Shown: positions 24,800 to 29,149 of the stretch, in pieces
Layout: each line of letters starts with the position of its first letter
Numbering within the stretch: the first letter of the stretch is position 1
The notes under the pieces: generated by a model
The model's input: the letters and a program-made list of their open reading frames with translations, nothing else
Databases searched by the model: none
What the model was told of the DNA's origin: nothing
Source: Dictyostelium discoideum
Lineage: Eukaryota
NCBI GenBank assembly: GCA_000004695.1
Contig: CM000151.3
Span: 3,456,001-3,520,000 of the forward strand
DNA: 64,000 nucleotides
Reading direction: 5' to 3'
Made by a program: the position numbers and the translations under genes

Positions 24800-25378
24800 A
24801 TGAATTCTCCATCAACATTTTCAGGTGGTCGTAGAGGATCATTTTCAGAGACCAAATATATTTATAATAAATCAAGAACTGGACCATATCCAGCAAGAAA
24901 TGTATCAAGACAACAAAGAAGTTTAACATTTAATGAAACTTTTAGAGCATTATTTCCAGCAGTATTTGCAGTATTACTCTCTTTAATGGTATTATCAGCA
25001 TTCAATCATTTACATGGTAACAAAGTTATAGAGTGGATCAATGATAATGCTATAAGTATCCCAGGTTATCGTAAACATTCAACAACCGATTTAATGGAAA
25101 GACCAACAACTGAAATTATGAAAATCGATGGAGTTGGAAAACCACCCTTTGATTTGGCTGAATATGAAAAATTGGGTCCAAAAACATCTGGTTCCTACTG
25201 GGCAAATAAAGGACGTGGTCAAGAATATCAAAATATGAAAAATAGAAAAATTGACTACAAATCAATGATAAATACAAAATATCAAAGTTATGGTCCATTT
25301 GCTTCATCTTCTTATTATGAAAATATTGGTAAAATGAAAGAATATGAAGATAGAAAAATTTCAAACCAATTTAATTAA
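24800..25378 (+). CDS. Hypothetical single-pass membrane protein (192 aa)
   Basis: ATG-initiated ORF with an A-rich leader and one hydrophobic segment (ALFPAVFAVLLSLMVLSAF). I recognised no family. Confidence 0.4.
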   Translation: MNSPSTFSGGRRGSFSETKYIYNKSRTGPYPARNVSRQQRSLTFNETFRALFPAVFAVLLSLMVLSAFNHLHGNKVIEWINDNAISIPGYRKHSTTDLMERPTTEIMKIDGVGKPPFDLAEYEKLGPKTSGSYWANKGRGQEYQNMKNRKIDYKSMINTKYQSYGPFASSSYYENIGKMKEYEDRKISNQFN

Positions 25379-26181
25379 ATTAAAATAATAATAATAATAA
25401 AAAAAAACAAATAATATAAAAAAAAAAAAATTAAAAAAATTAAAAAAAAAAAAAAATTTAAAATAAAATAAAATAAAATAAAATACTTTAATTTTAATTA
25501 AAAAAAAATAAAAAAAATTAAAAATTAAAATAAAAAATACCCAATTAAAGTTTAATAATATAAATAAAACTTTCCTTTTGAAGTTATTTTTTAAATCTAA
25601 TTTTAAATCCTTGTTTTTTTTTTGATAAAAAAAAAAAAAAAAAAAAAAAGTTTACATTTTCCAAAATAAAATTTAAAATAAATATGAATATCCAATTAAA
25701 AACAAATAAAGTTTTTTAAAAATATAAATATAATAACATTTTTATCTAACATATAGTTTTAATCTAGTTTTAAAATCTGTGTTTCTATTTTAACTCATGA
25801 TAGAAAAAAATAAAAAAAAAAAAAAAAAAAGAAATATAAAATATTACTTGAAAATGAAATAAATTTTTACAAAATAATACATTCATACATCCACTACTAA
25901 AACCATCCATTTATTTAATTTCTTTTTTTTTATTTATGATAATTATTTATTAATTTTTTTTTTTTTACTTTTAATTAATTTAATTTTTTTTATATAAAAA
26001 AATATAAAAAAAAGAATAAAAGAATAAAAAGTTTTTATTTTATTTTTCCATTTTTAATCAAATATTATTAAAAAAAAAACAAAATTTTAAAAAATGGTAA
26101 CTTTGATATTTTAGAATTTCATATTTAAATATAAAAATATATATTAATAATTCCAAATAAAAAAAATAAATAATAAAATAA

Positions 26182-26388
26182 TAGAAAAAATTATTTTTAT
26201 TAATTTTAGTATTATTATTGTCATTAAATATTTCGTGGGTAGTATCAGAAAATAAATATGAAGTGCAATGTGTTCTTGATTGTCTTGATCATGACCCAAA
26301 TTATACAATTGATTGTACAGACGTTTATAAAGGAACTGCTTGTAAAAATATTATTAGAAGATGCAAAGCTAGTTGCGCAAAACATTAA
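26182..26388 (+). CDS. Small secreted 6-Cys protein, paralogue of 27399-27608; the 5' end and start codon are unresolved, so this is a possible pseudogene
   Basis: The frame LILVLLLSLNISWVVSENKYEVQCVLDCLDHDPNYTIDCTDVYKGTACKNIIRRCKASCAKH* aligns residue by residue with the neighbouring paralogue, including the signal peptide and all six Cys. This frame has no in-frame Met. The track ORF 26258-26473 is in the +1 frame. A candidate one-codon first exon, ATG|GTAACT near 26093, has an incompatible phase. Confidence 0.35.
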
Positions 26389-26597
26389 TAATTTTAAAAA
26401 TTTAAATTTTAAAATTATAAAAATTAAAAATAATAAAAATTTTTATTACTTTAATTATTTTAATTTAATTTAATTATTTAATTTTAATAAAAAAAAAAAT
26501 AAGAAAACCTTTTTCAATATTAATTATAATAATTATTATTATTATCATTATTATTATTTTTATTATCATTATTTTTATTTTTATTATTACTATTATT

Positions 26598-26657
<60 letters not shown>

Positions 26658-27398
26658 ATTAGTAGTATAATTATTAGTAGTATTATTATTATTATTATTG
26701 GTAGTATTATTATTTATATTATTATTATTATTATTTTTTTTATTATTTTTATTATTTCTATTCTAAGTATTTTAATTTTTAATTGCAAATAAAATAATCT
26801 TATCAAAGATATTTTAAATTTTAAGATTTAATTTACATTTTTGTAAATATTTAAAAATGGAAATAAAAATTTAAAATAAATTAGATTTGTAATCAAAACC
26901 CATACCCATACCACATGTGATAATTTTTTATATTTAGTTTTTGCCAACCAAATCCAAAAAACAAATGGTTTATATAGGGAAAATAAAATTAAGTTATAAT
27001 TAAAAATAAAAAATAAAAAAATATAAAAAAACTTAAAATCATGTGTGGTGTTTGTGGGAGTTGAATAAAAAACAGACCTATTTTTAATTTTAATGTCGGG
27101 TTTCATACACCAACACATTCATACATTGCCCTATCTTTTATCCGATATTGGTTTATTTTACAATTTTAATTGTTTTTTTTTTTTTTTATTATATTTTATT
27201 ATTTTATCGTTTTTTTTTTTTGTATATAAATTGGATACTATTTTTTTTATTATTAAAAAATCGGAATATAATTTAAAAAAGGTAAAAAATAAATAAATAT
27301 ATCAAAAAAAACTTTAAAAAAAAATTTTATTTATATATATTAATATATATATATTTTTATGGTTTTTTATAAAAAAAGATAAAAAATAAAAAATAATC

Positions 27399-27608
27399 AT
27401 GTTAAAATTTTTAATAGCTATTTTAGTGATTTTCTCATTACTTTCAAATTTAAATGCAGTAAATGGGAAAGATATTACCTGTTTCGTAGATTGTATTAAT
27501 AAAGAACCAAATTTTTATAAAGATTGTCCAAAAGGAGCATTATTAAATCCAAAATGTAGAGCAGTTTTAAAAAATTGTAAAGATGAATGCAATTATAAAA
27601 ATAATTAA
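27399..27608 (+). CDS. Small secreted cysteine-rich protein (69 aa, 6 Cys)
   Basis: Signal peptide MLKFLIAILVIFSLLSNLNA followed by the pattern CxxxC...PNF..DC...C....C...C. It is a paralogue of the 26.2-kb copy. Confidence 0.55.
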   Translation: MLKFLIAILVIFSLLSNLNAVNGKDITCFVDCINKEPNFYKDCPKGALLNPKCRAVLKNCKDECNYKNN

Positions 27609-28396: not shown

Positions 28397-29149
28397 ATGA
28401 AACAAATAATTTCACCATTACTTTTAATAGTATTATTATTAATTAGTTTTTCAAATGCATATCAAAAATTATATGTAAATTTCATTCCATTTGAAAGTGT
28501 ACAATGTAGTGGAAATCCATCAGGTATTGGTTATGGCGGTTTAATTAATACTTGTTTCACTTTTGATAATTCTAGAAATTGGTTATTTAAATATTTAGAA
28601 CAAGAAAATTCAATAAGTTTTACTCAATACTATAACAAAGGAGGTGTAACAGAACTTTGTGAAATTAAATCAATGAAAACTCGTACTGCTTTAATTGGTG
28701 AATGTGTCTCTGGTAAAGATTTAGTATTCAACTCATTTTATCAATCAGTAAATTATGATTCATCATCCTCCTCATCATCCTCATCATCAACACCAGAAAT
28801 TTATTATCTCATTCAAATTACCAAGGATCAACCATTCATTGCACCAAGTTCAACTGTTGTATCACATAACTATGGTGATTGTACTGATGGCGATAGTGAT
28901 ATTATATATTATGAAACCTTTTCAAATCAAACTCAAGTTTTTATCCCAATCTTTGGTACAGTTAGTGAATTTTACTGTTTAAATAATACCCCAATGGCAA
29001 TGACCTGTGAAAATAATGGAAGTAATTGTACTAATCCACAAGACCAAACTACGATTTGTGAAGCCGTTTCTCCATTCTTTAATACTACTGCCTCTGATAT
29101 GAGTTCAGGTGATACATTATATACATTTAATAATTATTGTAGTTATTAA
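28397..29149 (+). CDS. Secreted protein, unknown family (250 aa, signal peptide, poly-Ser tract, about 10 Cys)
   Basis: ATG after an A-run, N-terminal signal peptide, no C-terminal hydrophobic anchor. Confidence 0.5.
   Translation: MKQIISPLLLIVLLLISFSNAYQKLYVNFIPFESVQCSGNPSGIGYGGLINTCFTFDNSRNWLFKYLEQENSISFTQYYNKGGVTELCEIKSMKTRTALIGECVSGKDLVFNSFYQSVNYDSSSSSSSSSSTPEIYYLIQITKDQPFIAPSSTVVSHNYGDCTDGDSDIIYYETFSNQTQVFIPIFGTVSEFYCLNNTPMAMTCENNGSNCTNPQDQTTICEAVSPFFNTTASDMSSGDTLYTFNNYCSY

What the first reader, a model, noticed from the sequence alone, without database searches (positions are those of the whole stretch)
26090..27608. Pair of paralogous small secreted 6-Cys proteins; the upstream copy has a frame/start conflict
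27399-27608 encodes a 69-aa secreted peptide with a CxxxC...PNF..DC...C...C...C scaffold. At 26182-26388 a paralogue with the same signal peptide and all six Cys is in frame, but it has no in-frame Met; the only nearby ATG (26258) is in the +1 frame. A Dictyostelium-style one-codon first exon (aaaaaATG|gtaact at 26093) exists upstream, but its splice phase does not fit. Either the copy is a young pseudogene or it has an unusual 5' structure. Tandem small Cys-rich secreted peptides in amoebae are often antimicrobial-like or signalling peptides.
Basis: seen in the sequence. Interest (0 to 1): 0.5.

Follow-up and report, generated by a model that had tools for sequence, protein, structure and literature searches.

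The report
Two secreted six-cysteine peptide genes
Both copies are intact, conserved Dictyostelium genes for small secreted disulfide-rich peptides of unknown function; the upstream copy's "missing" start codon is a one-codon first exon (ATG) followed by an intron, so it is a mis-annotated gene, not a pseudogene.

Summary
The window is D. discoideum AX4 chromosome 2. The downstream ORF (27399-27608) is DDB_G0273111, 69 aa. The upstream copy is DDB_G0273337. The product is a 68-aa pre-peptide with a normal signal peptide.

The same ATG|GTAA, phase-0 acceptor and open exon 2 occur at the syntenic locus in a divergent D. discoideum lineage, D. citrinum, D. dimigraforme and D. firmibasis. Indels fall only inside the intron. 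dN/dS is 0.12-0.26.

The public three-exon model is not conserved: its ATG is ATA or deleted elsewhere. The +1-frame ORF carries stops in three species.

The pair belongs to a family of at least 13 AX4 genes with no Pfam or PDB sequence match. Signal peptides are about 76% identical and mature peptides about 31%. The predicted fold is a disulfide-locked helical hairpin. It resembles plant alpha-hairpinins only loosely, and UniRef's ShKT label is unsupported.

Both paralogues share a conserved upstream block containing ACATTCATACAT.

Function is untested. The result is a gene-model correction plus an uncharacterised lineage-specific peptide family, of modest interest.

The parts
25879..25890 (+). 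ACATTCATACAT core of a conserved upstream block (about 25835-25925), 215 nt before the upstream copy's ATG. Putative shared cis-regulatory element.
   Evidence: This is one of only two exact copies in the window. It is conserved at the orthologous place in L002-L004, with one mismatch in L005. The regulatory function is inferred.
26094..26096 (+). Exon 1 of the upstream gene (DDB_G0273337, re-modelled): the start codon alone, in an aaaaaATG context.
   Evidence: ATG|GTAA is present 71-98 nt upstream of the in-phase acceptor in all five genomes. ATGGTAA is rare in AT-rich DNA of the window, with P about 0.016 per 120 nt.
26097..26184 (+). Phase-0 intron, 88 nt, GTAACT...AATAG, 91% A+T.
   Evidence: Orthologous introns are 81, 88, 98 and 71 nt, and the length differences are not multiples of 3. 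All indels of the alignment fall here. Size and composition match D. discoideum introns, which have a median of 103 nt and 89% A+T (PMC2483917).
26185..26388 (+). Exon 2 of the upstream gene: residues 2-68 plus the stop. Together with exon 1 it encodes the signal peptide MKKLFLLILVLLLSLNISWVVS and the 46-aa mature 6-Cys peptide.
   Evidence: Translation. Apart from one extra codon in the D. dimigraforme signal peptide, the alignment is indel-free from the acceptor to the AX4 stop in five genomes, and there is a synonymous TTA>CTA change in codon 4 of the spliced CDS (the third codon of exon 2) in D. citrinum. dN/dS is 0.12-0.26.
27032..27071 (+). Conserved G-rich box (ATGTGTGGTGTTTGTGGGAG) about 340 nt upstream of the downstream gene. 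It contains TGTGTGG, which fits the GBF response-element pattern.
   Evidence: Conserved in five genomes. The pattern (T/G)G(T/G)G(T/G)G(T/G) is quoted in PMC2257962. Binding is not tested.
27087..27186 (+). Conserved upstream block of the downstream gene, containing the second exact ACATTCATACAT (27115-27126). It is paralogous to the block at 25879.
27208..27241 (+). Conserved T-run plus TATAAA, the likely core promoter of the downstream gene.
   Evidence: Conserved block. The promoter function is inferred.
27399..27608 (+). Downstream gene DDB_G0273111: a single exon of 69 aa, with signal peptide MLKFLIAILVIFSLLSNLNAVNG and a 46-aa mature 6-Cys peptide.
   Evidence: Exact match to P0001. Intact orthologues exist in four other genomes. 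dN/dS is 0.2-0.5.

Best explanation
Two tandem, same-strand paralogous genes each encode a pre-peptide of about 68 aa. A cleavable N-terminal signal peptide sends it into the secretory pathway. The mature peptide of about 46 aa folds into a helix / short helix / helix hairpin locked by three disulfides. The CxxxC pair on helix 1 faces the CxxxC pair on helix 3, and the third bond closes the loop.

The downstream gene has one exon. The upstream gene starts with a first exon that is only the ATG (26094-26096). An 88-nt phase-0 intron is removed, and exon 2 (26185-26388) supplies everything else. It is a functional gene, not a pseudogene. The public three-exon model of DDB_G0273337 is an artefact, most likely because gene finders cannot model a 3-nt initial exon.

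Both genes carry the same conserved upstream block, so they are probably co-regulated. The peptides most likely act outside the cell on a specific conserved partner, as a ligand or inhibitor, rather than as broad membrane-active antimicrobials.

Shown here: gene structure, conservation, purifying selection, family membership and the shared upstream block. Inferred: secretion, disulfide pairing, co-regulation and extracellular function. The confidence of 0.8 refers to the gene structure and the claim of functional secreted-peptide genes. The specific extracellular role is much less certain (about 0.3).
For: Gene model:
- The acceptor at 26184 is in phase with the ATG exon.
- ATG|GTAA, an in-phase AG|AAAAA acceptor and an open exon 2 occur in all five genomes. 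Intron lengths are 88, 81, 88, 98 and 71 nt.
- Indels are confined to the intron.
- ATGGTAA is rare in AT-rich DNA.
- The re-modelled N-terminus aligns with the family's signal peptide. The annotated protein only matches the family profile from its residue 15.

Against the annotated model:
- Its ATG (25684) is ATA in the ACTFIR lineage and the segment is absent in three species.
- Its 16-nt exon 2 has a 2-nt deletion in ACTFIR.
- The D. citrinum automatic model fuses the ORF to the upstream gene through a 668-nt intron and cuts off that gene's conserved C-terminus.

Functional constraint:
- Upstream copy: dN/dS is 0.12-0.26, binomial P from 1e-3 to 9e-7.
- Differences by codon position are 54, 54 and 118.
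- The +1 frame is broken by stops in three species.

Family: at least 13 AX4 genes share the six-Cys scaffold.

Fold: AlphaFold2 gives mean pLDDT 77 with helices at mature residues 2-12, 16-19 and 28-40.

Co-regulation: the exact 12-mer sits 215 and 284 nt upstream of the two ATGs. These are the only exact copies in the window, inside blocks conserved across species.
Against: - There is no transcript, EST or proteomic evidence. None of the tools gives RNA data, and no searchable paper mentions any family member.
- The donor GTAACT departs from the usual GTAAGT at position +5, and only GTAA is invariant across species.
- Exon 2's first 25 nt are 96% A+T, so by composition they cannot be told apart from intron.
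- The acceptor at 26209 is also conserved, though as coding sequence.
- Signal-peptide cleavage and disulfide pairing were not computed, because there is no SignalP and no model coordinates.
- The preference for a specific partner over an antimicrobial role rests only on purifying selection and modest net charge.
Confidence: 0.8

Rival explanations
1. The upstream copy is a pseudogene that lost its start codon. The open frame is a relic and the ATG|GT upstream is coincidence.
For: There is no in-frame ATG in the ORF. The position homologous to the paralogues' ATG is now TAG/AAA (sequence). Family members do decay: P0012 and P0014 are truncated and L001 carries a stop-interrupted copy.
Against: The ORF, all six Cys, the ATG|GTAA and the in-phase acceptor are retained in five genomes separated by dS up to about 1.3. 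dN/dS is 0.12-0.26, significantly below 1.
Confidence: 0.03
2. The public dictyBase/NCBI model is right: three exons (25684-25710, 26015-26030, 26210-26388) giving the 73-aa MNIQLKTNKNKRIKILLLSLNISW... protein.
For: It is the deposited annotation (P0002). It uses GT..AG boundaries and the conserved AG at 26209.
Against: - Its start ATG is ATA in ACTFIR and the whole segment is missing in three species.
- Its second exon is frameshifted by a 2-nt deletion in ACTFIR.
- Its donors are GTTTTT.
- The product lacks the n-region and half the h-region of a signal peptide, and its first 14 residues do not match the family profile.
Confidence: 0.04
3. The Cys-rich ORF is the last exon of the upstream 192-aa gene, as in the fused models called automatically in D. 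citrinum and D. firmibasis.
For: Two independent annotations fuse them: 239 aa in L003 and 270 aa in L005.
Against: - The 192-aa protein is conserved through its last residue and stop codon in all genomes.
- The D. citrinum fusion needs a 668-nt intron, discards that conserved C-terminus and enters the ORF in mid signal peptide.
- The AX4, ACTFIR and D. dimigraforme annotations keep the 192-aa gene separate.
Confidence: 0.05
4. The gene structure is as in the best explanation, but the peptides are antimicrobial or defence effectors used against bacteria or competitors.
For: - The multigene family has a conserved signal peptide and divergent mature peptides (76% versus 31% identity).
- There is birth-and-death turnover.
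- The helical hairpin weakly resembles alpha-hairpinin antimicrobial peptides (PMC11591084).
- The downstream copy evolves fast between AX4 and ACTFIR: 10 nonsynonymous against 3 synonymous changes, dN/dS 0.78.
Against: - Net charge of the mature peptides is only -2 to +5, and 0 for the upstream copy.
- The upstream copy is under clear purifying selection with 1:1 orthologues.
- The 0.78 value is not distinguishable from neutrality or from constraint (P = 0.46, 13 changes).
Confidence: 0.25

Closest known systems
Plant alpha-hairpinins (e.g. vicilin-buried peptide VBP-10, PDB 6wqj; nigellin-1.1, PDB 2nb2)
ShKT / ShK-toxin domain (Pfam PF01549; the UniRef label on DDB_G0273337)
   Same: Six Cys in about 40 residues, mostly helical, secreted.
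   Different: No Pfam ShK hit at E <= 10 for any of 13 members. No ShK structure appears among the fold matches. The Cys spacing ends C-x6-C-x3-C. The predicted hairpin implies C1-C6/C2-C5/C3-C4 rather than ShK's C1-C6/C2-C4/C3-C5 (PMC6409789). That pairing is inferred, not measured.
D. discoideum sigN / HssA-2C-7E small-protein gene families
   Same: Both are lineage-specific multigene families of small proteins clustered on chromosome 2. Both have a very short coding first exon (13 nt in sigN) followed by a small intron, and G-box-like promoter elements (PMC2257962).
   Different: They are unrelated in sequence. SigN proteins are 87-89 aa and rich in Ser/Gly/Cys, without this six-Cys scaffold. 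Here the first exon is only 3 nt, and only one lineage of the family has the intron.
Euplotes water-borne pheromones (from my own knowledge, not tested here)
   Same: Protist secreted peptides of about 40 aa with six Cys and three disulfides in a small helical bundle, in which the leader is more conserved than the mature peptide.
   Different: No sequence or fold match was obtained. This is an analogy only.

Membership tests
ShKT domain (PF01549 / PROSITE PS51670) | Significant match to the ShK domain profile | tested here: not met
   hmmscan against Pfam-A at E <= 10 returns no ShK hit for either window protein or for any of 13 family members. The PROSITE profile behind UniRef's label could not be run.
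ShKT domain (PF01549 / PROSITE PS51670) | Six Cys with C1-C6, C2-C4, C3-C5 connectivity (PMC6409789) | not testable with these tools
   Model coordinates are not returned. The secondary structure, with CxxxC on helix 1 and CxxxC on helix 3, suggests a different pairing.
ShKT domain (PF01549 / PROSITE PS51670) | Fold similarity to solved ShK-type structures | tested here: not met
alpha-hairpinins | Cys motif C1X3C2-X4-20-C3X3C4 (or the 6C form CX3CX3C-X4-20-CX3CX3C) with no Cys in the spacer (PMC11591084) | tested here: not met
   Both CX3C pairs are present, but the spacer is 24-29 residues and contains two Cys (alignment A4).
alpha-hairpinins | Helix-loop-helix fold with antiparallel helices | tested here: inconclusive
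D. discoideum 6-Cys 'MLKFLIAILV' peptide family (unnamed; DDB_G0273111, DDB_G0282455, DDB_G0273241 and others) | Signal peptide followed by the scaffold C-x3-C-x(6-11)-C-x(7-11)-C-x6-C-x3-C, with significant profile similarity | tested here: met
   Both window genes score E = 1e-28 and 8e-23 against the family profile, which included both window genes. All six Cys columns are invariant.
Spliceosomal intron of D. discoideum type | GT..AG boundaries, about 89% A+T, about 100 nt, reading frame restored | tested here: met
   GTAACT..AATAG, 88 nt, 91% A+T, phase 0. Species norms come from PMC2483917. The boundaries are conserved in five genomes. Actual splicing is not testable here.

The most novel reading that the evidence does not exclude
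The pair belongs to a family of secreted, disulfide-locked helical-hairpin peptides restricted to the D. discoideum clade, with a near-invariant leader and divergent mature peptides. These could be diffusible extracellular signals, or lineage-discriminating or competitive effectors, of social amoebae. That would be a peptide-ligand class not yet described in Dictyostelium, loosely analogous to ciliate pheromones. The conserved upstream block and G-box would tie their expression to multicellular development.
Probability: 0.15. Interest if true: 0.65.

Novelty: new member of a known kind. Interest (0 to 1): 0.3.

Why it matters
1. It corrects a public gene model. DDB_G0273337 and its twin DDB_G0273845 gain a proper signal peptide.
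2. It shows how a 3-nt first exon defeats gene finders. Five annotations of the same locus gave one contrived model, two missed genes and two false fusions. Small secreted peptide genes are therefore probably under-counted in dictyostelid genomes.
3. It defines an uncharacterised family of secreted Cys-rich peptides, so far found only in D. discoideum and three close relatives, with a shared conserved upstream element. This gives a concrete set of candidates for extracellular signals or defence molecules in a model social amoeba.

None of this overturns current understanding.

Tried and rejected
- Pfam on both proteins and on all 13 members: nothing relevant.
- PDB sequence profile search: only chance hits with E >= 0.5.
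- Foldseek against PDB with the full-length model: nothing with E < 4.
- Rfam on 24-30 kb, to test whether the conserved intergenic boxes are ncRNA genes: only sub-threshold chance hits.
- Literature search for 16 DDB_G identifiers of the family: no paper.
- Exact look-up of my spliced 68-aa protein among 15 billion proteins: absent, so no annotation anywhere has this model.
- Look-ups of AX4 proteins in the contig index: AX4 is not indexed. This was circumvented through the neighbouring CfaA_B_C gene.
- Searches for published statements on introns directly after the ATG in Dictyostelium: none retrieved.
- P0015 and P0016 from the profile search were judged spurious or doubtful, being a repeat protein and an 8-Cys metagenomic peptide.
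- The idea that the 27043 G-rich box and the 26896 C-rich stretch form a meaningful inverted repeat was dropped. Only the G-rich box is conserved.

Full report
**What is in the sequence**

The window is 78% A+T. Protein searches place it on D. discoideum AX4 chromosome 2.

The ORF at 27399-27608 (+) encodes 69 aa: MLKFLIAILVIFSLLSNLNAVNGKDITCFVDCINKEPNFYKDCPKGALLNPKCRAVLKNCKDECNYKNN. This is identical to DDB_G0273111 and its twin DDB_G0273849 in the AX4 chromosome-2 duplication.

About 1 kb upstream, the frame ending at 26388 is open from 26185. It encodes KKLFLLILVLLLSLNISWVVSENKYEVQCVLDCLDHDPNYTIDCTDVYKGTACKNIIRRCKASCAKH. The two share all six Cys and the PN[FY] motif (27% identity, E = 7e-10). 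A tblastn scan with five family members finds no third copy in the window.

**The start-codon problem**

- The triplet before the open frame (26182-26184) is TAG.
- There is no in-frame ATG. The only ATGs between 26050 and 26260 are 26094 and 26258, the latter in the +1 frame.
- The first is aaaaaATG|GTAACT.
- Listing every AG between 26100 and 26262 shows that the one ending at 26184 (aataatAG|AAAAAA) puts exon 2 at 26185. That is the coding frame, and it fits a phase-0 intron directly after the ATG.
- The next AG, at 26209, is out of phase.
- The intron is 88 nt and 91% A+T. D. discoideum introns have a median of 103 nt and 89% A+T (PMC2483917).
- The spliced product is 68 aa, MKKLFLLILVLLLSLNISWVVS|ENKYEVQC.... 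It has a basic n-region, a 12-residue hydrophobic core, and small residues at -3 and -1. This is my reading; no signal-peptide predictor was available.

**The public model**

DDB_G0273337 (P0002, 73 aa, MNIQLKTNKNKRIKILLLSLNISW...) is built from three exons: 25684-25710, 26015-26030 and 26210-26388. Its donors are GTTTTT, and it loses half of the signal peptide. In the family profile search it aligns only from its residue 15.

**Comparative test**

The neighbouring CfaA_B_C-family gene (28397-29149) gave orthologues in four other assemblies. These gave access to four syntenic loci:

| Locus | Assembly |
|---|---|
| L002 | a lineage labelled D. discoideum (ACTFIR, GCA_054859385.1) |
| L003 | D. 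citrinum |
| L004 | D. dimigraforme |
| L005 | D. firmibasis |

- Both peptide genes are present and intact in all four, in the same order and orientation relative to each other.
- In every genome the upstream gene has A-rich-ATG|GTAA, an intron of 81, 88, 98 or 71 nt, an AG|AAAAA acceptor in phase 0, and an open exon 2 with all six Cys.
- Apart from one extra codon in the D. dimigraforme signal peptide, all indels lie between donor and acceptor, and the length differences are not multiples of three.
- From the acceptor to the AX4 stop there are otherwise none.
- Codon 4 of the spliced CDS (the third codon of exon 2) shows a synonymous TTA>CTA change in D. citrinum.
- ATGGTAA occurs only 8 times in about 30 kb of AT-rich window DNA, counting both strands. 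The chance of one within 120 nt is about 0.016 per genome.

By contrast, the public model is not conserved:

- Its ATG at 25684 is ATA in ACTFIR, and the segment is absent from the three other species.
- Its 16-nt second exon carries a 2-nt deletion in ACTFIR.

The +1-frame ORF from 26258 has stop codons in D. citrinum, D. dimigraforme and D. firmibasis.

The automatic annotations of these genomes either miss the upstream gene (ACTFIR, D. dimigraforme) or fuse it to the preceding 192-aa gene (D. citrinum, D. firmibasis). The D. citrinum fusion needs a 668-nt intron and removes the conserved C-terminus of that gene. My spliced protein is absent from a 15-billion-protein collection. No public annotation therefore has this model.

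**Selection**

| Comparison | dN/dS or counts | Source |
|---|---|---|
| Upstream gene, all pairs | 0.12-0.26 (mature part 0.07-0.32); binomial P from 1e-3 to 9e-7 against neutrality | |
| Upstream gene, differences by codon position 1, 2, 3 | 54, 54, 118 | |
| Downstream gene, between species | 0.19-0.51 | |
| Downstream gene, AX4 vs ACTFIR | 10 nonsynonymous to 3 synonymous; 6 to 0 in the mature part; 0.78; P = 0.46 | |
| Neighbouring genes, AX4 vs ACTFIR | 0.12-0.15, with dS 0.06-0.10 | |

The upstream gene is functional, not a pseudogene. The downstream gene is less constrained. The AX4 versus ACTFIR counts are too few to call.

**The family**

- Profile searches of 1.8 and 5.8 billion proteins find only D. 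discoideum proteins.
- Thirteen AX4 genes are recovered. They lie on the 8.48-Mb contig (chromosome 2) and on two other large contigs, of 6.36 and 3.60 Mb. Three more come from the other assemblies labelled D. discoideum.
- All are called hypothetical. Two AX4 members (P0012, P0014) are truncated, and L001 carries a stop-interrupted copy.
- Among nine full-length AX4 paralogues the signal region is 76% identical and the mature region 31%.
- The upstream gene of this window is the outlier, with 25% identity in the signal region, and is the only member here seen to have the intron.
- Orthologues in three related species exist but are mostly unannotated. The apparent restriction to D. discoideum is therefore partly an annotation effect.

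**Fold and known families**

- Pfam gives nothing for any member, including ShK.
- A PDB sequence profile search gives only chance hits.
- AlphaFold2 on the 13-sequence alignment gives pLDDT 77. The mature peptide has helices at 2-12 (carrying C1xxxC2), 16-19, and 28-40 (carrying C4, C5xxxC6).
- Foldseek finds nothing.
- The family fails the alpha-hairpinin Cys-motif definition, because its spacer is too long and contains two Cys (PMC11591084).
- It shows none of the tested ShKT features. UniRef's 'ShKT domain-containing' label on one member is therefore unsupported here (PMC6409789).
- I treat the fold as 'works like a disulfide-locked helical hairpin', without membership of either family.

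**Regulation**

- The exact 12-mer ACATTCATACAT occurs only twice in the window, 215 and 284 nt upstream of the two ATGs.
- It sits inside blocks of 60-100 nt that are conserved between the paralogues and across all species.
- The downstream gene also has a conserved G-rich box (27032-27071) containing TGTGTGG. This fits the GBF response-element pattern quoted in PMC2257962.
- It has a conserved TATAAA block as well.
- Together these suggest shared, possibly developmental, regulation. That is a lead, not a result.

**Mechanism and confidence**

- I am confident (about 0.8-0.85) in the gene structure and in the statement that both are functional genes for secreted six-Cys peptides.
- The proposed action is an extracellular ligand or inhibitor with a conserved partner. 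It is inferred from purifying selection, 1:1 orthology and unremarkable charge (-2 to +5), and competes with an antimicrobial or defence role.
- No tool here gives expression or activity data.

**Verdict**

The finding is real. What remains is a gene-model correction and an uncharacterised, lineage-specific peptide family of modest interest.

Noticed in passing
window 25879-25890 and 27115-27126 (blocks about 25835-25925 and 27087-27186): The exact 12-mer ACATTCATACAT occurs only twice in the window, once upstream of each paralogue. Both sit inside blocks conserved across five genomes, making this a candidate family-specific cis-regulatory element.
   Followed up: partly
window 27032-27071: A conserved G-rich box (ATGTGTGGTGTTTGTGGGAG) fits the GBF response-element pattern and lies about 340 nt upstream of the downstream gene. 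This hints at post-aggregative expression.
   Followed up: partly
window 26931-26975: A conserved non-coding block (TTTGCCAACCAAATCCAAAAAACAAATGGTTTATAT) lies between the two genes and has no Rfam match. Its function is unknown.
   Followed up: partly
window about 26520-26760: A long (ATT)n/(TTA)n microsatellite of about 240 nt lies in the spacer between the paralogues.
   Followed up: no
window 24800-25378 (+): A 192-aa ORF with no Pfam domain and one hydrophobic stretch is 92-98% identical across four species. It is a highly conserved unknown gene that two automatic annotations wrongly fuse to the peptide gene.
   Followed up: partly
window 28397-29149 (+): A single-exon gene of the CfaA_B_C (counting factor-associated protein) family, Pfam E = 5e-39. 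It is another secreted-protein gene, immediately downstream of the pair.
   Followed up: partly
L002 (GCA_054859385.1, labelled D. discoideum): This assembly differs from AX4 by dS 0.06-0.10 in the neighbouring genes. That is unusually divergent for the same species, so it may be a cryptic lineage.
   Followed up: partly
L001 8626-8727: A second family copy with an in-frame stop (...DPNYN*VCTNGLPGAACR...) lies about 400 nt downstream of ACTFIR_000751. This is a pseudogene and evidence of birth-and-death turnover.
   Followed up: no
window 26230-26238 and orthologues: An N-x-S/T sequon (NIS, NTS or NFS) is conserved in the c-region of the upstream gene's predicted signal peptide in all five genomes. 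Either cleavage occurs earlier than I assume and the mature peptide is N-glycosylated, or the conservation is coincidental.
   Followed up: no
P0006 (ACTFIR_000464, 129 aa): This annotated protein is two tandem family members read as one, another automatic mis-call of this family.
   Followed up: no
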